IMG/VR virus record: IMGVR_UViG_3300045988_127307
Coordinates: 1-39,492 of that record
DNA length: 39,492 nucleotides
Strand: one strand, 5' to 3'
Source: a virus
This document shows, piece after piece, positions 2,774 to 38,313 of the stretch. The translations under genes were made by a program, and so were the position numbers. The first letter of the stretch is position 1; every line of letters begins with the position of its first letter. Below the pieces are notes generated by a model that was not told where the DNA came from, ran no database searches, and was given only the letters and a program-made list of their open reading frames with translations.

Positions 2774-4198
2774 ATGTTTAATAGTTATCAAGAGTTTGTT
2801 ACTGCTGAACTTACTGGATTGTATGGCTCGGCAGTATTACAAGAAATGAACGATATACTAAGACTGTATGACATATACGAAGGTCGAGAAAACTTTATAG
2901 ACAAGTCAGAAGAAAAAGATTATACACAGACAGAAAAAAGAACAAATCTGATTAAGAAACTTATAAAAGAAGAATCTAGATTTTTATTCGGCAAGACTCC
3001 AGAGCTATATGTTCAATCTAAAAACGATACAGATACTGACAAGGATAAAGCTGAACAAATAAATCTTTATTTAGATAAGATATTAAAAGATAATCTATTC
3101 TCAGAGAAGCTTGTAAAAGGTGCTAGAGACTGCTTTATCGGTAAAAGAGCTGCTATTAAATTATATGCTAACCAAGATACAAAAGAGATTAGGATAATGT
3201 TTTTACCTAGCTTGGAATTTATCTACGAGAGTGACGAAGAAAATCCTAACGAACTTAAAAAGATAATATTCTTCTATCAGACAAATAAGGAAGTTGAAAA
3301 AGATAAGCAACGTATTTGGAAGCAAAAGTATGAAATGATAGATGGAAGATGTATATTAAATGAAGGCATCTACAATGGTAATGGGATATTAATAGAGCCT
3401 ATAAATGTAGATGTAGACTTGCAATTAAGTGGTATTCCTTGCTATGTCATTATTAATGACGGATTAAGCGGCGACCCATTTGGCGAAAGTGACGTAAAAG
3501 AGCTTCTAGATAATCAGATTCAATACAATAGACTATCAAGTGAAGATGTTGACACTCTTAGAAAAGGTATGGATAGGATTATTTATGGTATCGACATAGA
3601 CCCAGAAGCATCTGAAAAATTTAAACTAAAGCCTGGAGCATTTTGGGACGTACCAACAGACCCTACAGCAGAAGGGAAACAAGCTACACTAGATACAATA
3701 CCGACAGATTTTAATTATGGAGACAAGATAGAAAATTCTCTAAAACGTATTAAGTCAGATATGTACGAGATGCTAAATATACCAATGCTATCAAATGACG
3801 AGCTAAAAGGCATGATGACATCAGGCAAAACTATGAAAGCACTGTATTGGCAACTTATTACTAGATGTGAAGAGAAGATGATGGCATGGCGACCAGCTTT
3901 AGAGTGGTTAATAAGAGCAATACTTGAAATTACAGAAGTATATCAAATAGAAAAATTACCGCAACTTGATTATACTGTTACAGTAGAAAATAACTATCCT
4001 TTACAGGAAGATGAAGACGAAGAAAAGACATTAGACTTGCAACAAGTAAATGCACAGGCTATGTCTAGAAAAACATTCATCAAGAAATGGCAAGGTGTTA
4101 CAGATGATGTGGCCGATGCTGAAATAAAACAAATAGCATTAGAAAGAGAAATGCTAGAGGAGAGTTATGTATCTGGAATGAGTGATTCAGTTGAATAA
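2774..4198 (+). CDS. portal protein (SPP1 gp6-like)
   Basis: 474 aa, immediately after terL, with an acidic C-terminus. SD AAGGAGG lies upstream. Confidence 0.8.
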   Translation: MFNSYQEFVTAELTGLYGSAVLQEMNDILRLYDIYEGRENFIDKSEEKDYTQTEKRTNLIKKLIKEESRFLFGKTPELYVQSKNDTDTDKDKAEQINLYLDKILKDNLFSEKLVKGARDCFIGKRAAIKLYANQDTKEIRIMFLPSLEFIYESDEENPNELKKIIFFYQTNKEVEKDKQRIWKQKYEMIDGRCILNEGIYNGNGILIEPINVDVDLQLSGIPCYVIINDGLSGDPFGESDVKELLDNQIQYNRLSSEDVDTLRKGMDRIIYGIDIDPEASEKFKLKPGAFWDVPTDPTAEGKQATLDTIPTDFNYGDKIENSLKRIKSDMYEMLNIPMLSNDELKGMMTSGKTMKALYWQLITRCEEKMMAWRPALEWLIRAILEITEVYQIEKLPQLDYTVTVENNYPLQEDEDEEKTLDLQQVNAQAMSRKTFIKKWQGVTDDVADAEIKQIALEREMLEESYVSGMSDSVE

Positions 4199-5087
4199 TT
4201 TTTTTAAACAAAAGAATAAAACTGAAAAAGAGATGACTAGAGAAATAAAAAAAGCATATAAGAGAGTAGCAAATAATCTAATTAAAAGATTGGCTCTAGT
4301 TAATCCAGATACTATGACATATGACTATTTAAGACAAACTGCTAAGTATCTAGAAAAAGAATATAAGAAACTAAATAAAAGACTTAATAAAGATATAGAA
4401 AAGGCTATAGCAAACACCGTAGAAGGCTATACACAAAGCCAAGTAGAGTTTTACAGTGATTTATGTAAACCTCTTTCTAGTAGCTTTGAAGATATGTTTA
4501 TTAAAGTGAATAAGCAAGTTTTAGACAATGTTATTACAGGCAAAATGTATGGAGATAACATAAAACTTTCTGACAGACTTTGGAGCAATCACAACAAGAC
4601 TGTAAAAACAATAAACGATATACTTACAGATGGTTTTATTACTGGTAAAAACAGTAAAGATATAGCTAAAGACTTAGAGGTTTATTGTAATCCAGATTAT
4701 TTAAAGGAATACGAAAAGTTTACTATTCATCCTAAAAGTAAAAACAAGGTTGAATTTAATTCATATAGATTAGCAAATACCTATATAAATCATGCATACC
4801 AAGAAGCAACAAGGCAAAGTGCTAAGCATAATCCATATGTAGAAAAAGTTGAATGGCTAAGCGGAACAGACGATAATGTATGCGATTTATGTAAAGAACG
4901 AAACGGAAAGAGGTTTAAGGTCGAGGATATTCCACTCGACCATCCGTGACCATTAGGACGATGCACCTTATTACCAGTCATAGAGGAAAATTTAGAAGAT
5001 ATAGCAAAAGAATTAAAAGATTGGGCTTATGGATCTTCAAATCCTAAATTAGATAAATGGTTTGAAATGTGGAATGTTAAAAAATAA
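4182..5087 (+). CDS. Mu F / SPP1 gp7-like minor head (head morphogenesis) protein, interrupted by an in-frame TGA at 4947-4949
   Basis: The track ORF ends ...CDLCKERNGKRFKVEDIPLDHP at TGA. The same frame continues PLGRCTLLPV... for 45 codons to TAA 5085-5087. Together the two parts cover the family motif C..C...PP.HP.CRCT..P. Confidence 0.7.
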
Positions 5088-8282: not shown

Positions 8283-8703
8283 TTTCAACATGAATATAGA
8301 CGAGTTAACAGATATGCTAGAACAAAAGAGAAATAGGACAAAAGCAGCACTAGAAATATATGCTAATAGCTCAGCTCTAAAACTCCAAAATAATGCAAGA
8401 AGAAATAAACCTTGGACAAATAGAACTTATGATGCTAGGAATAAACTTAACGCATCATGGGAATGGAAAAATGAGAATGTATTAAGTATTGCATTATCCC
8501 ACGGTGTTAAATATGGGGTGTATCTAGAAAAGGGAACATCACCACATGTTATAACTGGAAATCCTTGGTTGTATTGGCAAGGGGCTAGTCATCCAGTTAA
8601 ACGAGTAAATCATCCAGGAACAAACCCTTATCCGATTATAATGCCAACAATAAATGAAATAGGTCCACAGGTTATGGCTGGATTAAGCATACTTCTAAGG
8701 TAG
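8275..8703 (+). CDS. HK97 gp10-like tail/neck component
   Basis: 142 aa with the segment GVYLEKGTSPHVITG...HPGTNPYPIIMP, which resembles the HK97 gp10 family. Confidence 0.5.
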   Translation: MSNFNMNIDELTDMLEQKRNRTKAALEIYANSSALKLQNNARRNKPWTNRTYDARNKLNASWEWKNENVLSIALSHGVKYGVYLEKGTSPHVITGNPWLYWQGASHPVKRVNHPGTNPYPIIMPTINEIGPQVMAGLSILLR

Positions 8704-31713: not shown

Positions 31714-31727
31714 GGAAGGTGAATAAC

Positions 31728-32606
31728 ATGAATAAAGCAGCACAAAGAACAAATGGAGCATTAGCACTTGCAGAATGCACTCTAGAAGGTGGACAAGTTT
31801 TAAACGTAGAAACAGTCAAGAATTATCTTGTAAGAGGTAACGGAGATATAACAGACCAAGAAACATTGATGTTTATCGAGTTATGCAAAGCTCAACATCT
31901 TAATCCATTCATAAACGAAGCATACTTAATCAAATTTGGAAGTCAACCAGCACAAATAGTTACTGGTAAAGATGTATTTGTTAAAAGAGCTTATAAAAAT
32001 CCTAACTTTGAAGGAATGAAAGCTGGAATAGTAGTTTTATCTAATGGAGAAATGAAATACAGAGAAGGCAGCTTAAAAGCACCAAAAGAACAATTAATCG
32101 GTGGTTGGTGTGAGGTATATGTAAAAAATGTGAAATTCCCTGTTAGATCTGAAGTAGCTTTAGAAGAATATAGTAAATCACAAGCAACTTGGAAGCAGAT
32201 GCCATGTGTAATGATTAGAAAATGTGCTATGGTAACTGCTTTAAGAGAAGCATTCCCAGAAGATTTACAAGGTTTATATGATAGCTGCGAAATGAAAAAC
32301 GTACCAGATAAATTACCACAAAAAGAAGTTGTAATAGGCAAAGCAACAAGTGAGCAAAAGAGAAAGTTATTAGCAATGGCAGAGGTAAAAGGATTATATA
32401 GTCACGAAGATGCTAAAGATACATCAAAGCTTGAATATTTCTGCAGCAGTAACGGATATGACCTAAAAGACTTAAAATTCGAAGAAGTGGACGAGCTATT
32501 ACAACTACTAACAAACTATGAACCAGTACAAGATGTAGAGTACACAGAAGAACCTATAGAAGAGGATAATGGACAAATAGAAGGACAGCAAGTAATGGAT
32601 ATGTAG
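31728..32606 (+). CDS. recT: RecT/Bet-family single-strand annealing protein
   Basis: ATG 31728 follows SD AAGGAAGG. Contains the segment FIELCKAQHLNPFINEAYLIKFG...IVTGKDVF...F.G. Confidence 0.8.
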   Translation: MNKAAQRTNGALALAECTLEGGQVLNVETVKNYLVRGNGDITDQETLMFIELCKAQHLNPFINEAYLIKFGSQPAQIVTGKDVFVKRAYKNPNFEGMKAGIVVLSNGEMKYREGSLKAPKEQLIGGWCEVYVKNVKFPVRSEVALEEYSKSQATWKQMPCVMIRKCAMVTALREAFPEDLQGLYDSCEMKNVPDKLPQKEVVIGKATSEQKRKLLAMAEVKGLYSHEDAKDTSKLEYFCSSNGYDLKDLKFEEVDELLQLLTNYEPVQDVEYTEEPIEEDNGQIEGQQVMDM

Positions 32607-32657: not shown

Positions 32658-33551
32658 ATGGCAAAATACAGAGCAATACAAGTAGACTTTTGGGAAGATG
32701 GATTTGTATTAGATTTAACTCCAGAAGAAAAGTATTTCTATTTATATCTTCTAAGCAACTCTAGAACAACACAATGTGGATGCTATGAATTACCTTATAA
32801 GGTTGTAGAAATGCAAACAGGATATAACAGAGAAACAGTACAGAAATTATTAAAAAGATTTGAAGATTACGGAAAAACAAGTTACAACGAAGAAACAAAA
32901 GAAATACTTATAAAAAACTGGCATAAACATAACTTTTCTAAATCTCCTAAAGTGAAAAATTGCATTTTAAAAGAAATTGAAAAGATAAAAAGTAAAGACT
33001 ATAAAGATTATTTATATAGAGTATGTATAGAGTATGGATACCCTATTGATACAGTATCTATAGACTATAAAAATAGTAATAATAGTCTAGATAAAGACTT
33101 AGATAGTCTATCCATAGACTCGGGGGAAAAAGAAAAAGAAAAAGAAAAAGAAAAAGAAAAAGAAAAACAAAAACAAAAAGAAGATACAGCATCTCCTGAA
33201 AAAAATGTAAGTAAGTTGGTAGGTAATGATTTAAAAGAATTTACTAACCTATTTGAAAAAAATATAGGAACGGTAAATCAATTAATAGCTCAATGGCTTA
33301 TAGAAATGACAGAAACAATAGACAGAGATTTATTTGCAAGAGCAATAGAAATATGCACCGAAAGAGCTAAAACCAACTGGGGCTATCTAAAAGGTATAAT
33401 CAACAACTGGACAAACAATAACATATACACAATGGAACAATTACAAGCATACAAATTACAGCAAGAACAAAACAAACCTAGACAACAAGATGAATTAAAT
33501 AAACAAGATCTAGATTTTCTAGACAAAATAGATGAAAAATTCGGATTATAA
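32658..33551 (+). CDS. replisome organizer (Phage_rep_org_N domain plus DnaD-like C-terminal domain)
   Basis: N-terminus YRAIQVDFWEDGFVLDLTPEEKYFYLYLL. C-terminus ...NWGYLKGIINNWTNNNIYT. An (EK)n linker separates them. Confidence 0.75.
   Translation: MAKYRAIQVDFWEDGFVLDLTPEEKYFYLYLLSNSRTTQCGCYELPYKVVEMQTGYNRETVQKLLKRFEDYGKTSYNEETKEILIKNWHKHNFSKSPKVKNCILKEIEKIKSKDYKDYLYRVCIEYGYPIDTVSIDYKNSNNSLDKDLDSLSIDSGEKEKEKEKEKEKEKQKQKEDTASPEKNVSKLVGNDLKEFTNLFEKNIGTVNQLIAQWLIEMTETIDRDLFARAIEICTERAKTNWGYLKGIINNWTNNNIYTMEQLQAYKLQQEQNKPRQQDELNKQDLDFLDKIDEKFGL
33060..33120. repeat. four ATAGACT(AT) iteron-like sites in + - - + orientation (candidate origin)
   Basis: Sites at 33060-33068 (+), 33082-33089 (-), 33103-33111 (-) and 33114-33120 (+). 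The last two form the palindrome AGTCTAT-CC-ATAGACT. Confidence 0.5.
33126..33173 (+). repeat. hexanucleotide microsatellite: (GAAAAA)6 then (CAAAAA)2
   Basis: Read directly from the sequence. It encodes EKEKEKEKEKEKQKQK. Confidence 0.95.
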
Positions 33552-33556
33552 AGGAG

Positions 33557-34312
33557 ATGAATAAAATGGATGCAATTTTATTGAATAGATTAAAAGTTGC
33601 TTTGGAAAAACATGCTCCAGAACCAGCAAAATATGATTGTCCTAAATGTGAAGATAGAGGATATACATTCGAGATAAAGGATGGATATGAGGTGGCTGTA
33701 CCTTGTAGCTGCTTAGAAAAAAGACAAAGTATCGAAAAACTTGCATTAAGTGGTCTTACAGAGGTTTTTAGACAAAAGACGATTAATTCCTTTAAAACTA
33801 ACAAGGAATGGCAAATAAAGGCAAAGAACGAGGTTTTACGATATGTTAATGACTTCTTAAAAAAAGAAACTAATGCAAGTTTGATTTTGTGTGGAAATCC
33901 TGGAAGTGGAAAGACACATCTAGGAATCGGGGCTATGTTAGAACTTATAAATAACAATGTTGGGTGTGTGTATAAAGAGTATATATCAATGCTGACTAAT
34001 CTAAAACAAGTTATCAATGAAGAAGAAGAGTTTATCAGAGAATTAGAAAAATATATAAATCCAAGAGTATTATTTTTAGATGATTTTCTAAAGGGAGAAG
34101 TTACATCAGCAGACCGAAAATACATATATAAAGTCATAAACACTCGATATTTAAAAGGTAAACCAATGATTATATCAACTGAGAAAAGCATAAAGGAAAT
34201 ATTAATGTTTGATGAGGCTGTTGGGTCACGAATTGTCGAAATGGCTCAAAATAATATAATAACATTCCCTAGAGGAATAGAAAACAACTATAGATTAAGA
34301 AATATAATATAG
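33557..34312 (+). CDS. DnaC/IstB-like AAA+ helicase loader
   Basis: Walker A GNPGSGKTH, Walker B VLFLDDF, and an N-terminal Cys cluster CPKCEDRG...PCSC. Confidence 0.8.
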   Translation: MNKMDAILLNRLKVALEKHAPEPAKYDCPKCEDRGYTFEIKDGYEVAVPCSCLEKRQSIEKLALSGLTEVFRQKTINSFKTNKEWQIKAKNEVLRYVNDFLKKETNASLILCGNPGSGKTHLGIGAMLELINNNVGCVYKEYISMLTNLKQVINEEEEFIRELEKYINPRVLFLDDFLKGEVTSADRKYIYKVINTRYLKGKPMIISTEKSIKEILMFDEAVGSRIVEMAQNNIITFPRGIENNYRLRNII

Positions 34313-34347
34313 GGCTTTAACGAGCCCTAGGAGGGGGATAATCACAA

Positions 34348-34884
34348 ATGGCATTAAGACTATCAGACTTAGAACGAAAAAAGATAAAGAGATTATACAA
34401 TAAAGGATTAAGCATACTAAACATCTCTTATGAGTTAAATAGAAATAAAAATACTATAAAAAAATATGTAAAAGAAATGGGACTTGTTAGAGAAAATCCA
34501 GACCTAATTGGACAAGTATTTGGCAAACTTACAGTAATAGAATTAGATCAAGAATCAAGTGGTAGAAGAAAATGGATATGTAAGTGTAGCTGCGGAAATA
34601 CAGTATCCGTCAGAGAATATAACTTGAAATCTGGAAACACAAAATCATGTGGATGCACTAGAAAAGAAAAATCATCAGTGAGAAATCTGAATGTAAAGCA
34701 AGTTAAAACTAGAGATAATCAAGGTGGAGTTTACTATTTTCAACCAGGAGAGATTATTTTAAAAGGCAATTACGAAAGCGAGAAAAAATGCAGCAAAGTA
34801 AAAGAATACAAATTAAGTCCTGAGGAGTTGCAAGTCTATTTGAAATCACTAGAAACAAAAGAAGTAAAGAAAAGGGGTGAATAG
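34348..34884 (+). CDS. HTH plus Cys-rich (zinc-ribbon-like) DNA-binding protein
   Basis: N-terminal HTH (GLSILNISYELNRNKNTIKKYV) and the segment GKLTVIE...WICKCSCGN...SCGC. Confidence 0.45.
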   Translation: MALRLSDLERKKIKRLYNKGLSILNISYELNRNKNTIKKYVKEMGLVRENPDLIGQVFGKLTVIELDQESSGRRKWICKCSCGNTVSVREYNLKSGNTKSCGCTRKEKSSVRNLNVKQVKTRDNQGGVYYFQPGEIILKGNYESEKKCSKVKEYKLSPEELQVYLKSLETKEVKKRGE

Positions 34885-34886
34885 TA

Positions 34887-35123
34887 ATGGAAAAAAATAT
34901 AATCGAAGTGAAAAATATAAAAACTGGAGAAGTATTAGAGTTTACAGGCCAAAATGCAGTAGCGAAGTATCTTACAGGTGTATATGGCAAGAAAATATAC
35001 GCTGGAGCTGTAGCATCAGCTATAAGACAAGACACTCCATATAAAAATACATGGGAAATAAATTTTATAAAAAACGCTAATAAAAAAATATGCAGGATTA
35101 TTCATAGAATTAAAAGCAGATAA
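34887..35123 (+). CDS. small NUMOD1-like DNA-binding protein (possible homing-endonuclease remnant)
   Basis: The segment IEVKNIKTGEVLEFTGQNAVAKYL...ASAIRQDTPYKNTWEINFI resembles the DNA-binding modules of GIY-YIG/HNH homing endonucleases. No catalytic domain is present. Confidence 0.35.
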   Translation: MEKNIIEVKNIKTGEVLEFTGQNAVAKYLTGVYGKKIYAGAVASAIRQDTPYKNTWEINFIKNANKKICRIIHRIKSR

Positions 35124-35250
35124 AACAAAGAGCATGACAAAAGAACAAAAGGAATGGCTAGAAAAACTAAATAGTTACGGATATAAAGCTGTTAGATGTA
35201 ATGGCTCAGAAGAAGCTATACAGGTTATAAAAAAATATCTAAATATATAG
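35071..35250 (+). pseudogene. C-terminal remnant of a VRR-NUC nuclease gene
   Basis: The frame opens at 35071, after TAA at 35068-35070. It encodes ...YAGLFIELKADKTKSMTKEQKEWLEKLNSYGYKAVRCNGSEEAIQVIKKYLNI. The E.K and Q..W...L...G motifs are present. The N-terminal half with the PD motif is absent. Confidence 0.5.
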
Positions 35251-35259
35251 GTGAATAAA

Positions 35260-36240
35260 ATGATTGGATTAATAGATGTAGATAGTAAAATTCCTAATCT
35301 TGCACTTATGAAACTTTCAACTTATTACAAGTCAATCGGAGAAACAGTCGAATTTGTGCAAGATGGAAAAGAATACGAAAAAATATTTGCAAGTGCAATT
35401 TTTACTAGAAGTAAATCTATTTGTGAAGATCTAGTAAATAAATATGAAGATAAAATAGAAATCGGTGGAACAGGCTGGGATATAAAAAAGACTTTGCCTG
35501 ATAAAATTGAAAAACTTAGACCTGATTATGAGCTATATAGCATAGAAGAAATAGCTAGTAGAATGAAAGGTATTGGAACAAAGGAACACAAACTAAAAAA
35601 GGCTAAGGAAATTGTAGAGGCTGGTATGGGATATACATCTAGAGGTTGTGTAAGAAATTGTGGATTTTGCTTTGTACCAGAAAAAGAAGGTGAGTTTCAT
35701 GATGTAGCTGAAATAAGTGATTTACTTAATCCTAAAAGTAATATTTTGATTTTACATGATAATAATCTTACTGCTGATCCGTATTGCATAGATAAACTAA
35801 AAGAAATAAAAGAACGTAAACTTATAGTTGATATAAATCAAGGATGTGATGTAAGACTTATGACAGATGAAAAGGCTTACTGGTTAGGACAAGTAAAACA
35901 TTTAAGAAGTTTACATTATGCATGGGATTTAATGGGACACGAAAGAAAGGTGCTAGAAGGTATTGAAACACTTAGCAAGCATGTAAAGAAGTATAAACAT
36001 ATGTGCTTTATGTTAGTTGGTTATAACACTACTTTTGAGGAAGATATGTATAGATTTAAAACATTAACTTCGTTAAAAGTAGACCCATTTGTAATGATTT
36101 ATAATCAAATACCTGATTTAAGACTTAAACATTTTGCTAGATGGGTTAATAGTAGAATTTATAAGAAATGCACAAATTTTGAAGAATACGGACCTTGGGT
36201 AAAGGCTCAAGTGAAATATAATCAACTGACATTTTTTTAG
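35260..36240 (+). CDS. radical SAM enzyme with an N-terminal Rossmann/B12-binding-like region
   Basis: A CX3CX2C cluster lies in GYTSRGCVRNCGFCFVP. ATG 35260 follows SD AGGTGA (the track ORF starts at GTG 35251). Confidence 0.75.
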   Translation: MIGLIDVDSKIPNLALMKLSTYYKSIGETVEFVQDGKEYEKIFASAIFTRSKSICEDLVNKYEDKIEIGGTGWDIKKTLPDKIEKLRPDYELYSIEEIASRMKGIGTKEHKLKKAKEIVEAGMGYTSRGCVRNCGFCFVPEKEGEFHDVAEISDLLNPKSNILILHDNNLTADPYCIDKLKEIKERKLIVDINQGCDVRLMTDEKAYWLGQVKHLRSLHYAWDLMGHERKVLEGIETLSKHVKKYKHMCFMLVGYNTTFEEDMYRFKTLTSLKVDPFVMIYNQIPDLRLKHFARWVNSRIYKKCTNFEEYGPWVKAQVKYNQLTFF

Positions 36241-36255
36241 GAGGATATAAAGAAA

Positions 36256-36819
36256 TTGAATACAGAAGAAAAAAACAAATTAGCAGAAGAAAATTTAGGA
36301 TTAGTTTATTTAGTTGTAAACAAAGAATTTACTTATGAAAAAACTACAGAAAGCGATAGAGAAAACTACATAGAAGAAGGTATGATTGGATTAGCAAAAG
36401 CTATTAATACATTTAATCCAAGTAAAGGTGCTAAATTTAGTACATATGCTTATACATGCATAAAATTTGAAATAAATAGCTATGTAAGAAAGAAAAACAA
36501 TCATAAAAGAAAAATAAACTATGTTTGTAAAAATTCAATAGATGAATATATAAAAGGAGATGAAGGGAGTAAAATATTAACTCACAAAGATATTTTAATG
36601 GATACGAAAGATGCTTATTCTTCTTTAGTAAATAGAGATGAAATATTAAATATACTTGGAAAGATGAAGATAAAAAATATAAAGTATATCACTTTAAAAC
36701 GTGCAGAAGGTTATACGTATGAAAAAATAGGTAATAAAATTGGAGTTAGTAAAGAAACAATACGAGCAAGATTGAATAAAGCTAAAAAAGAATTAATCGA
36801 ATTAGGAATAACAGCATAA
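36256..36819 (+). CDS. sigma-70 family RNA polymerase sigma factor
   Basis: Region 2: EEGMIGLAKAINTFNPSKGAKFSTYAYTCIKFEI. Region 4 HTH: EGYTYEKIGNKIGVSKETIRARLNKAKKEL. The start codon is TTG. Confidence 0.8.
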   Translation: MNTEEKNKLAEENLGLVYLVVNKEFTYEKTTESDRENYIEEGMIGLAKAINTFNPSKGAKFSTYAYTCIKFEINSYVRKKNNHKRKINYVCKNSIDEYIKGDEGSKILTHKDILMDTKDAYSSLVNRDEILNILGKMKIKNIKYITLKRAEGYTYEKIGNKIGVSKETIRARLNKAKKELIELGITA

Positions 36820-36829
36820 GGAGGTTTAA

Positions 36830-37096
36830 ATGAAAGAGATAACAAAAGAAAGACTAATACATATAGCAAATGATATACAGGCAATAGAAATGTCGGAAAT
36901 GACTAATGCTATATTAGCAGTTAAACTCGAAAAAAACATAACAGACAAAGTAAAAAGAACAAATTATATAAACTCTTTGAAACAATTAATTATTAAGAAA
37001 GATATAAAAATATATTTTGATAATTTATTAGATTATGGAGAAATAAAAATATATTTTAAAAACGGAGATATAAGAAATTACTTAGTAGTAGATTAG
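36830..37096 (+). CDS. hypothetical protein
   Basis: 88-aa ORF with SD AAGGAGG upstream. Confidence 0.45.
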   Translation: MKEITKERLIHIANDIQAIEMSEMTNAILAVKLEKNITDKVKRTNYINSLKQLIIKKDIKIYFDNLLDYGEIKIYFKNGDIRNYLVVD

Positions 37097-37202
37097 GTGA
37101 AAAAATGATTGGAGCTCAAGTGAAATATAATCAACTGACCTCCTTTTAGGAGGGAATATGAACAAAGAAGAAATGGAAAGGAATAGAGAAAAAAATGAAT
37201 AA
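37094..37202 (+). repeat. collapsed copy of the rSAM gene ends plus its downstream RBS, with a possible degenerate sigma-like start
   Basis: 37094-37113 matches 35248-35268 (SD plus ATG ATT GGA; one indel). 37114-37139 is identical to 36205-36230 (the last 26 nt of the rSAM gene excluding its stop). TTTTAGGAGG is shared after that point. Confidence 0.85.
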
Positions 37203-37476
37203 AAAAGAAAATACAATAAAATACTTCATGAAGGCATCAGAAAATGAGGAATTATTTACAACTATCGCAATGGAAGAATGTGCAGAATTAATTCAAGCAA
37301 TAAGCAAAGCAAAACGAGGCAAATTGGATGCTGACAACATGGCAGAGGAAATAGCTGATGTACTAATAGGAATTGAATGGCTTAAAGAATTATATGATAT
37401 TGATGCTTTAGAAGTACAAAAGTGGATAGCATATAAACAAAACAGAATCGCAAAAAAACTGGAAAATAGGGGGTAA
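37195..37476 (+). CDS. MazG-like nucleotide pyrophosphohydrolase
   Basis: The segment AMEECAELIQAIS...MAEEIADVLIGIEWL carries EE..E and EE..D metal-binding helices. Confidence 0.65.
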   Translation: MNKKENTIKYFMKASENEELFTTIAMEECAELIQAISKAKRGKLDADNMAEEIADVLIGIEWLKELYDIDALEVQKWIAYKQNRIAKKLENRG

Positions 37477-37480
37477 GTAT

Positions 37481-37702
37481 ATGGCAGAGCAATACAGAAA
37501 ATTTAGAATAATTTTAAAAAGTGGTAAGGAATTTGAAAGAAGTTTCAAAGAGGAAAATATCATAAGAAATTTAGCAGATATAAATAAAATAGCAGAGGAA
37601 GAAGAAAAGGGAATCAATTTATTTAAAGATGATAAAGATGGTCAAAATTTCTTTGTAAGATTTTCAGAAGTAGCAGCTATAGTTGATATAACAGAAAATT
37701 AG
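37481..37702 (+). CDS. hypothetical protein
   Basis: 73-aa ORF with SD-like AGGGGG upstream. Confidence 0.45.
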   Translation: MAEQYRKFRIILKSGKEFERSFKEENIIRNLADINKIAEEEEKGINLFKDDKDGQNFFVRFSEVAAIVDITEN

Positions 37703-37711
37703 GTGATAAAG

Positions 37712-37888
37712 ATGAAATGTAAATACTTTAAAAAAGAAACTGGCGATAAATACTGCAGCAACTATTTAGGACCACAAATAGTAGGAGCATATGGAGAAGG
37801 AACGATTATAAAACATAACTGTAAAGATAAATGCAAGTATGTTGATTGTAAGAAACTTGAAGAATTACAAGTACTAAAAAGGGGGTGA
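37712..37888 (+). CDS. Cys-rich small protein
   Basis: ATG 37712 lies 7 nt after SD AGGTGA. Six Cys residues in 58 aa. Confidence 0.4.
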   Translation: MKCKYFKKETGDKYCSNYLGPQIVGAYGEGTIIKHNCKDKCKYVDCKKLEELQVLKRG

Positions 37889-38007
37889 TAAGCTTTGCTA
37901 TTAAACAGAGTGAATGAAATTGTAGAACTGGCTAAGAAATACATAGAAAAGGGATATAGCACATTGGAAGCAATTAAATTAGCTGAAAAGGAATTGGAGG
38001 AAGATTA

Positions 38008-38163
38008 ATGGAAGAAGTAAAGCAAGCATTAGAAGTATTAAAAAAAGAATGTACTAAACAAGATGACTGCGAAGGTTGCTCAATATCTAAGGTATTAGGA
38101 TATAGTTGCCAAGAGGTAGCTATTCCAGAAGAATGGGAAATAAAAGGGGAAAAATATGAATAG
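38008..38163 (+). CDS. 51-aa Cys-containing micro-protein (MEEVKQALEVLKKECTKQDDCEGCS...)
   Basis: SD GGAGG lies 7 nt before the ATG. Preferred over the antisense track ORF at 37974-38180. Confidence 0.35.
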   Translation: MEEVKQALEVLKKECTKQDDCEGCSISKVLGYSCQEVAIPEEWEIKGEKYE

Positions 38164-38230
38164 AGCAATAGCAGACGCAATAATCATATTTGTTATAAGT
38201 TTGTGGATAGTAAGCAGATTATGCATGTAA
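38156..38230 (+). CDS. 24-aa hydrophobic micro-protein (MNRAIADAIIIFVISLWIVSRLCM)
   Basis: SD AAGGGGA lies 5-6 nt before the ATG. It overlaps the upstream stop codon. Confidence 0.3.
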   Translation: MNRAIADAIIIFVISLWIVSRLCM

Positions 38231-38313
38231 GATACAAATAATTGACATAAAAAAAGGAATGCTTTCACATTCCGACAAATTCCTTAATAATATTATAACA
38301 GGAGTGTGGGAGC

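What the first reader, a model, noticed from the sequence alone, without database searches (positions are those of the whole stretch)
37094..37202. In-frame 'ghost' of the radical SAM gene (start fused to end) downstream of the rSAM-sigma-orf88 block
37094-37113 (TAGGTGAAAAAATGATTGGA) repeats the SD, ATG and first codons of the rSAM gene at 35248-35268, with one indel. It is joined directly to 37114-37139, a 26-nt exact copy of the coding end of that gene (36205-36230, GCTCAAGTGAAATATAATCAACTGAC). The same TTTTAGGAGG ribosome site follows. The result is an intact 14-codon mini-ORF, MIGAQVKYNQLTSF (37105-37149). This equals the rSAM protein with residues 4 to about 315 removed in frame. A 14-codon ORF follows (37158-37202, MNKEEMERNREKNE), and its start loosely resembles the sigma factor start MNTEEKNKLAEEN. 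That second similarity is A-rich and may be chance. The nested direct repeats bracket 1846 bp (rSAM plus sigma plus orf88) and 909 bp (sigma plus orf88). They could mark a duplicated module that then collapsed, or a cassette boundary or empty site. Recombination between the repeats would delete the block. Preservation of the SD, start, frame and stop suggests selection for translational coupling into the downstream MazG-like gene.
Basis: seen in the sequence. Interest (0 to 1): 0.65.

Follow-up and report, generated by a model that had tools for sequence, protein, structure and literature searches.

The report
Deletion scar of a phage gene
The "ghost" is real but ordinary: it is the leftover stub of a radical-SAM gene that lost its whole middle in one old deletion, it is shared by many related gut phages, and this phage later also picked up an intact copy of the gene by recombination.

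Summary
37094-37113 copies the rSAM start region. 37114-37158 copies the rSAM 3' end plus ribosome site (26 nt exact, 45 nt at 89%). Together they make an intact 14-codon ORF.

Comparison with about 60 related loci explains it. In relatives the gene order is sigma-orf88-rSAM. The ghost is that rSAM with codons 4-315 (936 nt) removed by one blunt deletion. The identical junction occurs in 22 other contigs from at least a dozen datasets, and all but one lack a full rSAM. So it is not an assembly artefact, not an empty site, and not derived from the window's own rSAM.

The window is a recombinant. An "rSAM-sigma" phage type and a "sigma-orf88-ghost-MazG" type share the same sigma gene, and a crossover within it put the intact copy and the scar 0.9-1.8 kb apart.

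The second mini-ORF is also a deletion scar, of a different 66-70-aa gene. Its likeness to sigma is chance. A third scar at 35077-35092 truncates a VRR-NUC gene.

rSAM was lost independently at least four times in this phage group. Selection for translational coupling is not supported: the SD has weakened in some lineages, the peptide changes, some relatives lack the ghost, and only one of four short scar ORFs is in frame.

The parts
37094..37113 (+). Ghost 5' half: orf88 stop codon (TAG), SD (GGTGA), ATG and codons 2-3 of rSAM. This is the native orf88->rSAM junction of relatives.
   Evidence: Identical, together with the upstream orf88 end, to L010/L038, where a full rSAM follows. One-indel copy of 35248-35268.
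37113..37114 (+). Deletion junction (GGA|GCT). 936 nt (rSAM codons 4-315) are missing and there is no microhomology at the breakpoints.
   Evidence: Parent sequences read ATTGGA|TTAATA and GTAAAG|GCTCAA. Length 936. The exact 23-nt junction is found in 31 fetched loci, which represent 22 contigs.
37114..37158 (+). Ghost 3' half: the last 11 rSAM codons, the stop codon and the AGGAGG ribosome site of the next gene.
   Evidence: 26 nt exact and 45 nt at 89% to 36205-36249. The same tail follows intact rSAM genes in relatives.
37105..37149 (+). Mini-ORF 1, MIGAQVKYNQLTSF*: the in-frame rSAM remnant. It has no CxxxCxxC motif, so it is not an enzyme.
   Evidence: Translation. Variants MIGAQVKYNKLTFF*...QLTFF* and a 2-codon-longer form (L058) occur in relatives.
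37158..37202 (+). Mini-ORF 2, MNKEEMERNREKNE*: a second, independent scar. The start of a 66-70-aa gene ('geneX') is fused out of frame, at AAAG microhomology (37177-37180), to that gene's last codons. It ends overlapping the MazG start.
   Evidence: Intact geneX starts with the same 23 nt in L001, L009, L011, L026/32 and L053. In L026/32 and L037 its end ...GTAAAGGAATAGAGAAAAAATG precedes MazG.
37195..37476 (+). MazG-like nucleotide pyrophosphohydrolase gene, the first intact gene downstream of the two scars.
   Evidence: PF03819, E 3.4e-6, above the curated cut-off. phrog_2245.
36830..37096 (+). orf88, no known family. It is the conserved left neighbour of the ghost and of the intact rSAM in relatives.
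   Evidence: No Pfam, PHROG or NCBIfam hit. 17 IMG/VR loci carry it.
36256..36819 (+). Sigma-70-family factor (allele A). This is the shared segment within which the window's two parental arrangements are joined.
   Evidence: PF04542/PF08281. The exact protein occurs with rSAM upstream (L045, 47, 49, 51, 52, 54), with orf88-ghost downstream (L046, L050) and with orf88-full rSAM downstream (L048, L053). Alignment.
35260..36240 (+). Intact radical-SAM gene (326 aa from the ATG; CVRNCGFC motif). It sits upstream of sigma, as in L002/L045-type phages.
   Evidence: phrog_9298, E 5.7e-74. Pfam Radical_SAM scores only 21.4 bits, below its 29.5 cut-off. 97% DNA identity to L002 across 35077-36821.
35248..35268 (+). 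Translation-initiation region of the intact rSAM (upstream copy of the 5' repeat).
36205..36249 (+). 3' end of the intact rSAM plus the sigma ribosome site (upstream copy of the 3' repeat).
35077..35092 (+). Third scar: a single copy of the 16-nt repeat CTAATAAAAAAATATG. About 500 nt lying between two copies in relatives have been lost. A 131/132-aa gene is fused out of frame to VRR-NUC (fusion ORF 34887-35123).
   Evidence: L001 and L002 carry the extra segment. In L001 the repeat copies are at 4319 and 4819.
35134..35250 (+). 38-aa C-terminal remnant of the VRR-NUC nuclease gene.
   Evidence: phrog_824 / phrog_5702, C-terminal part only. The full 151-aa L001 protein matches PF08774.

Best explanation
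The ghost is an inherited deletion scar, in effect a pseudogene stub, and not a functional element.

1. Origin. In this group of temperate Clostridia-type phages the late-regulatory accessory region originally read sigma-orf88-rSAM-(variable genes).
2. The deletion. One illegitimate deletion with no microhomology removed 936 nt (codons 4-315) of rSAM. It left the gene's own ribosome site, ATG and two further codons joined to its last 11 codons, its stop and the next gene's ribosome site.
3. Spread. This allele spread through the phage population. Recombination at or beyond the shared AGGAGG ribosome site placed it next to many different neighbours.
4. The window. A different lineage carries an intact rSAM directly upstream of the same sigma gene. 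Homologous recombination inside the shared sigma gene then joined "VRR-NUC-rSAM-sigma" to "sigma-orf88-ghost-scar of geneX-MazG". This step is plausibly helped by the phage's own RecT. It produced the window's genome, in which an intact rSAM and the scar of another rSAM lie 0.9-1.8 kb apart and look like nested direct repeats.
5. Translation. The mini-ORF may well be translated, because it keeps an SD, a start and a stop. The data give no sign that this is selected. Being in frame is a 1-in-3 outcome.

Shown: homology of both halves, the ancestral order, the shared junction, the mosaic structure, and independent rSAM losses.
Inferred: a single origin, neutrality, and a role for RecT.
For: - Both halves verified.
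- Intact sigma-orf88-rSAM order in L008/40, L010/38, L048, L053 and L059. The orf88->rSAM junction there is identical to the ghost's 5' half.
- The exact junction occurs in 31 fetched loci. These represent 22 contigs from at least 12 datasets: 9 IMG/VR metagenome ids plus ENA and other assemblies.
- Of 14 close orf88 loci in IMG/VR, 10 carry the ghost, 2 a full rSAM and 2 neither.
- The substitutions CAA->AAA and ATTC->CTCC are found only in ghost copies. The AAA variant is shared across 3 downstream contexts, which argues for one origin followed by recombination.
- Distant homologues align from residue 2 or 4, so the full gene is ancestral.
- Mosaic structure: the left arm, 35077-36821, is 97% identical to L002. 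The right arm from orf88 onward is 100% identical to L018/L028. The window's exact sigma protein occurs in all three arrangements.
- The window's own arrangement is re-found in ENA ERZ27261784 (L055), with 0 mismatches and one 12-nt repeat-unit gap over 8.2 kb.
- Independent rSAM losses: the L060 rSAM::MTase fusion, the L013 fragments, and clean removal in L033/35/62.
- Two further scars in the window itself.
- RecT is encoded at 31719-32606. Rad52-like recombinases drive mosaicism in temperate phages (PMC3945230).
- A very similar ~50-bp gene-end repeat flanking an extra gene is described in mycobacteriophage Island3 (PMC3029335).
Against: - Single origin is inferred from the identical junction and shared derived SNPs, not from a full phylogeny.
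- The ghost allele is more common than the intact gene at this position. This could reflect selection for loss or for the stub, rather than drift or hitch-hiking.
- No ghost copy in the sample has an early stop. The 45-nt ORF is too short and too little diverged for that to mean much.
- The window's combination is seen only in the window itself and in the 2 contigs found by the exact-protein look-up. One of those was read (L055, the same phage). The other was listed but not shown, so independence from a single assembly lineage is limited.
- No read-level data were available.
Confidence: 0.85

Rival explanations
1. The mini-ORF is kept by selection as a translational coupler or leader. Ribosomes would start at its SD and stop at the TAG inside the next gene's AGGAGG, which would keep downstream genes translated.
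For: - SD, ATG, frame and a stop overlapping the next ribosome site are all intact.
- No disrupted copy was found among 22 other contigs.
- The ghost is the commonest state downstream of orf88.
Against: - All copies share one junction, so conservation can simply be descent.
- The SD is weakened in two variant groups (TAAGTGA, TAGGTAA).
- The ghost-specific substitutions include two amino-acid changes (Q10K, F13S), whereas the close intact copies differ in this tail only by synonymous changes.
- L058 has a T-run frameshift that moves the stop.
- L033/L035/L062 join orf88 directly to another gene with no ghost.
- In L021-type phages the ghost start has become an internal part of a truncated sigma.
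- Only 1 of 4 short scar ORFs examined is in frame.
- In the window's variant the next SD sits in a CCUCCU/AGGAGG hairpin, and what follows is itself a dead stub.
Confidence: 0.08
2. A local tandem duplication of the sigma-orf88-rSAM block occurred in this genome's own lineage, and later deletions removed the first sigma-orf88 and the core of the second rSAM.
For: The gene order rSAM-sigma-orf88-(rSAM stub) is a circular permutation of sigma-orf88-rSAM, which is what duplication plus deletion would give.
Against: - The ghost occurs in 21 other contigs with no rSAM upstream of sigma in the stretch fetched. These include contigs with the window's exact sigma allele (L046, L050).
- rSAM-sigma without orf88 or ghost is a separate, common arrangement (L002, L045, 47, 49, 51, 52, 54).
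- The two 5' repeat copies differ by the indel that distinguishes the VRR-NUC->rSAM junction from the orf88->rSAM junction.
- One crossover in the shared sigma gene explains everything with known parents.
Confidence: 0.04
3. The ghost is an empty site or attachment sequence, and the rSAM core is a mobile insertion that enters and leaves precisely.
For: - The same junction is seen in many backgrounds.
- For several downstream contexts both ghost and intact alleles exist.
Against: - There are no repeats or microhomology at the breakpoints.
- The three N-terminal residues kept by the ghost are part of the conserved rSAM family alignment. Homologues at 25-35% identity start aligning at residue 2 or 4, and phrog_9298 covers residues 2-313.
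- Ghost-specific SNPs are shared across contexts, which indicates descent and not recurrence.
- Other rSAM losses have different, homology-mediated endpoints.
- No recombinase is associated with the gene.
Confidence: 0.02
4. The repeats are an assembly artefact, or the window is a chimera of two co-occurring phages.
For: - The junction between the two parental types lies in sequence shared by both. The whole sigma gene is shared with L046-type phages.
- The allele-A-sigma->orf88 joint pattern was absent from IMG/VR and the JGI metagenome collection.
Against: - The ghost junction itself is in 22 other contigs from many datasets and assemblers.
- The sigma-A->orf88 joint exists in ENA contigs L046, L048, L050 and L053.
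- The complete window arrangement is present in another 39,480-bp contig. That contig differs by two units of a hexamer repeat, so it is not the same sequence record.
Confidence: 0.02

Closest known systems
Short gene-end repeats at mosaic joints in mycobacteriophages (Island3 gp67/gp68 versus Brujita; PMC3029335)
   Same: A repeat of about 50 bp, copying the 3' end of one gene, flanks extra gene content. It is interpreted as the footprint of recombination or deletion at gene boundaries between related phages. The repeat here is the same size (45 nt) and has the same logic.
   Different: Here the second copy is also joined to the gene's start, so the entire stub of the lost gene can be reconstructed. 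The intact parental arrangement and many carriers of the scar are available.
Relaxed homologous recombination by phage Rad52-like recombinases (RecT, Red-beta, Erf) generating mosaic temperate phages (PMC3945230)
   Same: The window encodes a RecT. Its mosaic joint lies in a gene shared by both parental types. Several secondary deletions in relatives use 13-25-nt matches.
   Different: The founding rSAM deletion has no homology at its ends, so that step is illegitimate and not RecT-type. No experiment was done here.
Spontaneous deletions and gene remnants in dispensable regions of temperate phages, for example the lambda b-region and nin deletions and site-specific deletions in Streptococcus thermophilus phage Sfi21 (recalled from my own knowledge, not checked here)
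   Same: Accessory genes between the replication and late-regulator modules are lost repeatedly, often between short repeats, and leave small ORF remnants.
   Different: Those cases were observed in laboratory stocks. This one is inferred from metagenomic population diversity.
Translationally coupled upstream mini-ORFs or leader peptides
   Same: A short ORF has its own SD, and its stop lies inside the next gene's ribosome site.
   Different: There is no evidence of selection on the ORF or on its SD. It precedes unrelated genes, and in the window it precedes another dead stub.

Membership tests
Deletion-derived gene remnant (pseudogene stub) | Both parts are homologous to the two ends of an intact gene. 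| tested here: met
   20 nt (one indel) and 45 nt (89%, 26 exact) match the rSAM start and end.
Deletion-derived gene remnant (pseudogene stub) | The intact gene occupies the same position, with the same flanks, in relatives. | tested here: met
   sigma-orf88-rSAM in L008/40, L010/38, L048, L053 and L059.
Deletion-derived gene remnant (pseudogene stub) | Polarity: the full gene is ancestral, not an insertion into a pre-existing short ORF. | tested here: met
   Homologues at 25-35% identity in Bacteroides, Clostridium and archaeal phages align from residue 2 or 4. phrog_9298 covers residues 2-313.
Deletion-derived gene remnant (pseudogene stub) | Relaxed constraint after the deletion. | tested here: inconclusive
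   Ghost-only substitutions include Q10K and F13S, and the SD is weakened in 2 variant groups. The close intact copies show only synonymous changes in this tail. There are too few sites for a statistical test.
Mobile cassette empty site / attachment site | Occupied sites are flanked by duplicated target or att repeats, and a dedicated recombinase is present. | tested here: not met
   No repeat or microhomology at the breakpoints GGA|TTA and AAG|GCT. No adjacent recombinase.
Translational-coupling mini-ORF | SD, start, and a stop overlapping or abutting the next gene's ribosome site. | tested here: met
   GGTGA-N6-ATG ... TAG inside TTTTAGGAGG.
Translational-coupling mini-ORF | Conservation beyond what common descent gives, and an obligatory presence upstream of the coupled gene. 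| tested here: not met
   Single junction by descent. At least 5 different downstream genes. Absent in L033/35/62. MazG is preceded by an intact geneX instead in L026/32/37.
Translational-coupling mini-ORF | Demonstrated translation and an effect on downstream expression. | not testable with these tools
   Needs Ribo-seq or reporter fusions.
Radical SAM enzyme (applied to the ghost itself) | CxxxCxxC iron-sulfur motif and the core barrel. | tested here: not met
   The 14-residue product has no cysteine. The motif CVRNCGFC lies in the deleted part of the gene.

The most novel reading that the evidence does not exclude
The stub is not neutral. Because it keeps both boundary sequences of rSAM (20 nt on the 5' side, 45 nt on the 3' side) as well as a translatable ORF, it might be maintained in one of two ways. 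It could be a compact 'docking site' that lets RecT re-acquire or swap the rSAM gene from co-infecting relatives. Or it could be a coupling ORF that keeps the downstream operon translated after gene loss. Either would explain why the scar allele outnumbers the intact gene at this position and travels across many contexts.
Probability: 0.07. Interest if true: 0.45.

Novelty: new member of a known kind. Interest (0 to 1): 0.2.

Why it matters
It matters mostly for annotation and as a worked example.

- The two 14-codon ORFs, the 78-aa ORF (34887-35123) and the 38-aa ORF (35134-35250) should be annotated as gene remnants, not as genes.
- The apparent nested repeats are a by-product of mosaic recombination, not a cassette.
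- The locus gives an unusually complete series for an uncultured gut phage group related to C. difficile phages: intact parent, blunt deletion, spread of the scar, secondary microhomology deletions, and re-acquisition of the gene at a new position.
- Repeated independent loss of the rSAM gene suggests it is dispensable or conditionally costly. That is a small lead on the unknown function of phrog_9298.

Tried and rejected
- Megablast of 34300-38300 against INPHARED phages gave no match.
- rSAM peptide patterns and the ghost junction gave nothing in the GTDB species genomes, so no host could be assigned from prophages. The host group is inferred only from 66% portal identity to C. difficile phages.
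- The promoter/terminator scan found nothing at the ghost, and overall counts were below the shuffle expectation. An apparent TATAAT inside the 26-mer was considered as a promoter. I rejected it because the -35 spacing differs between the intact and ghost copies, and the scan did not call it.
- RNA folding of 37085-37215 was not significant (z = -0.8). Only a 6-bp SD hairpin formed.
- NCBIfam gave nothing for rSAM, orf88 or MazG.
- The allele-A sigma->orf88 joint pattern was absent from IMG/VR and the JGI metagenome collection. It was later found in ENA assemblies by exact-protein look-up.
- The predicted products of recombination between the window's own repeats were looked for among the fetched loci and not seen. 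These would be full rSAM followed directly by the geneX scar and MazG, or the VRR-NUC remnant followed directly by the ghost.
- The resemblance of mini-ORF2 to sigma was rejected.

Full report
**1.

- The sequence at 37094-37113 is TAGGTGAAAAAATGATTGGA. It differs by a single missing T from 35248-35268, which holds the stop codon of the upstream ORF, the SD, the ATG and codons 2-3 of the radical-SAM (rSAM) gene.
- It is joined directly to 37114-37139, an exact 26-nt copy of 36205-36230.
- That 26-mer occurs only at these two places in the window even with three mismatches allowed. None of 100 shuffles gave a match.
- The repeat extends to 45 nt at 89% and includes the AGGAGG ribosome site (family D1, spacing 909).
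- The 5' repeat has 12 exact bases at a spacing of 1845 (family D15).
- The missing segment, 35269-36204, is 936 nt or 312 codons, so the stub is in frame.

**2. What the window is**

- The window is a 39.5-kb temperate phage genome with 31% G+C.
- It encodes a tyrosine integrase, RecT, Sipho_Gp157, DnaB_2 and IstB-like replication proteins, a sigma-70-family factor, a MazG-like protein and a late-activator-like protein.
- It has no close relative among cultured phages.
- The best portal matches are C. difficile phages phiCD24-1 and phiCDKH01, at 66% amino-acid identity.
- The rSAM protein belongs to phrog_9298 (E 5.7e-74). It is at most 35% identical to any INPHARED phage protein.

**3. Relatives explain the ghost**

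Loci were fetched by four routes:

- through the rSAM protein;
- through orf88;
- through the exact ghost junction and through the orf88 3' end in the metagenome collection;
- through exact-protein look-ups of sigma and of the 78-aa fusion ORF.

In L008/L040, L010/L038, L048, L053 and L059 the order is sigma-orf88-rSAM, with an intact 326-aa rSAM. In L010 the end of orf88 and the following TAGGTGAAAAAATGATTGGA are identical to the window's 37040-37113. The ghost's 5' half is therefore the native orf88->rSAM junction. That also explains the one-base difference from the window's own VRR-NUC->rSAM junction. The 3' half and what follows it match the native rSAM-end junctions of L009, L011 and L053. 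The ghost is this rSAM with codons 4-315 removed. The parental breakpoints (ATTGGA|TTAATA and GTAAAG|GCTCAA) share no microhomology, so the founding event was a blunt, illegitimate deletion.

**4. The scar is widespread, old, and not an artefact**

- The exact 23-nt junction is present in 31 fetched loci. These represent 22 contigs besides the window.
- They come from 9 IMG/VR metagenome ids plus ENA and other assemblies.
- In 21 of the 22 the junction sits downstream of sigma-orf88, or of a truncated sigma, with no full rSAM in the stretch fetched. The exception is L055, the window's own phage.
- Of 14 close orf88 loci found without reference to the ghost, 10 carry it, 2 have the intact gene and 2 have neither.
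- The ghost is followed by at least five different genes:
  - the geneX scar plus MazG;
  - a C5 DNA methyltransferase;
  - a small ORF;
  - the 37-aa ORF o37 (the ORF at window 37895-38008);
  - one further gene.
- Two derived variants, CAA->AAA and ATTC->CTCC, occur only in ghost copies and never in intact rSAM tails. The AAA variant is shared across three downstream contexts.
- This pattern fits one origin, followed by recombination at or beyond the shared ribosome site. It does not fit recurrent precise excision.
- Distant homologues align from residue 2 or 4, so the full gene is the ancestral state and the ghost is not an empty site.

**5. Why the window has both an intact copy and a scar**

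- The left arm, 35077-36821 (VRR-NUC remnant, rSAM, sigma), is 97% identical to L002.
- The right arm, from orf88 onward, is 100% identical to L018/L028.
- In the alignment the window follows L002 through the variable part of sigma and follows L028 from the last ~45 nt of sigma onward.
- The window's exact sigma protein occurs in 164 index blocks, in three arrangements:
  - rSAM-sigma without orf88 (L045, 47, 49, 51, 52, 54);
  - sigma-orf88-ghost-MazG without an upstream rSAM (L046, L050);
  - sigma-orf88-full rSAM (L048, L053).
- One homologous crossover anywhere in the shared sigma gene, between the first two types, gives the window.
- The phage encodes RecT. Rad52-like recombinases are known drivers of such mosaics (PMC3945230). 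Their role here is inferred.
- The complete window arrangement recurs in ENA ERZ27261784 contig k99_10019 (L055). It is identical over 8.2 kb except for two units of a GAAAAA repeat. This argues against a chimeric assembly.

**6. The neighbourhood is full of scars**

- Mini-ORF 2 (37158-37202) is the first 23 nt of a 66-70-aa gene. That gene is intact in L001, L009, L011, L026/32, L037 and L053. In the window it is fused out of frame, at an AAAG microhomology, to the gene's last codons just before MazG. The same scar precedes MazG in L008/L040 behind a different gene. Its likeness to sigma is chance.
- At 35077-35092 a 16-nt repeat marks the loss of about 500 nt present in L001 and L002. A 131/132-aa gene is fused out of frame to VRR-NUC, leaving a 38-aa C-terminal remnant.
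- Relatives show further independent events:
  - L009 joins the sigma start to the orf88 end, out of frame.
  - L021/22/23/27 lost the sigma 3' end plus orf88 through a 13-nt match (AAAATGATTGGAG) between sigma region 4 and the ghost start.
  - L033/35/62 join orf88 directly to the 61-aa ORF o61 (the ORF at window 37703-37888).
  - L060 fuses rSAM codons 1-39 in frame to the C-terminal part of an N6/N4 methyltransferase through a shared DGKEY stretch.
  - L013 keeps only rSAM fragments.
- rSAM has therefore been lost at least four separate times.

**7. Function**

- No promoter-like or terminator-like site was called at the ghost.
- The region does not fold better than shuffles (z = -0.8).
- The coupling hypothesis cannot be excluded without experiments, but nothing supports it:
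  - the SD is weakened in two variant groups;
  - the ghost-specific substitutions include two amino-acid changes;
  - one copy has a shifted stop (L058);
  - some phages lack the ghost altogether;
  - only one of four short scar ORFs is in frame.

**8. Comparison and verdict**

This is a textbook product of phage mosaicism: illegitimate deletion, followed by homologous exchange at shared sequences. The closest described parallel is the ~50-bp gene-end repeat flanking an extra gene in mycobacteriophage Island3 (PMC3029335).

- The local-duplication, empty-site and coupling-selection ideas are not supported.
- It is a new example of a known kind of feature, and of low interest beyond annotation.
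- It is also a tidy record of stepwise gene loss and re-acquisition in an uncultured phage group.

Noticed in passing
window 37158-37202: The second 14-codon ORF is the out-of-frame deletion scar of a 66-70-aa gene of unknown function that is intact in several relatives. The AAAG microhomology is at 37177-37180. The same scar precedes MazG in L008/L040 in a different context.
   Followed up: yes
window 34887-35250 (junction 35077-35092): A deletion of about 500 nt between two copies of a 16-nt repeat fuses a 131/132-aa gene out of frame to the VRR-NUC nuclease gene. This leaves a 78-aa fusion ORF and a 38-aa VRR-NUC C-terminal remnant. The nuclease is intact in L001, L002, L045 and others.
   Followed up: yes
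window ~33126 (inside ORF 32658-33551, DnaB_2 family): A (GAAAAA)n tract encoding EKEKEK... has two more units in the window than in the otherwise identical ENA contig L055. This is tandem-repeat length variation inside a replication gene.
   Followed up: partly
window 37139-37154: In the window-type ghost the tail ACATTC has become ACCTCC. This creates a perfect CCTCCT/AGGAGG hairpin over the ribosome site of the dead mini-ORF 2. Two substitutions that both perfect a quasi-palindrome could be a templated mutation.
   Followed up: partly
L039 2367-4990 and L041 1723-4346: The sigma gene (allele B) is split by an insert of about 2 kb carrying an ISL3-family transposase (PF01610, E 3.5e-62) and two small ORFs.
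   Followed up: partly
L060 (reverse strand, from position 8387): rSAM codons 1-39 are fused in frame to the C-terminal part of an N6/N4 DNA methyltransferase through a shared stretch of about 25 nt encoding DGKEY. This is an rSAM loss independent of the ghost.
   Followed up: yes
L013 4600-5300: A fragmentary rSAM. The 5' part is replaced by another gene's sequence, and there is an internal loss between imperfect 25-nt repeats that correspond to window 35836-35860 and 36103-36127.
   Followed up: partly
L002 5146-5200; L045/47/51/54 3565-3640: Between sigma and o37 (the 37-aa ORF at window 37895-38008), these phages carry another 13-codon ORF, MEEKYIYKGGNIA*. Its stop overlaps the next start. 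It may be one more gene stub.
   Followed up: no
window 36256-36819 compared with L028/L010/L035: The sigma gene is itself mosaic. The first ~260 nt and the last ~45 nt are nearly identical in all phages. The middle and region 4 exist as two alleles about 78% identical overall, and L035 switches allele mid-gene.
   Followed up: partly
L046 6238-6564; L047 346-1634; L052 and L054 (5' parts): Related phages carry an intein/LAGLIDADG-containing ThyX and several free-standing HNH/NUMOD and GIY-YIG homing-endonuclease genes in the same region. These could contribute to local recombination.
   Followed up: no
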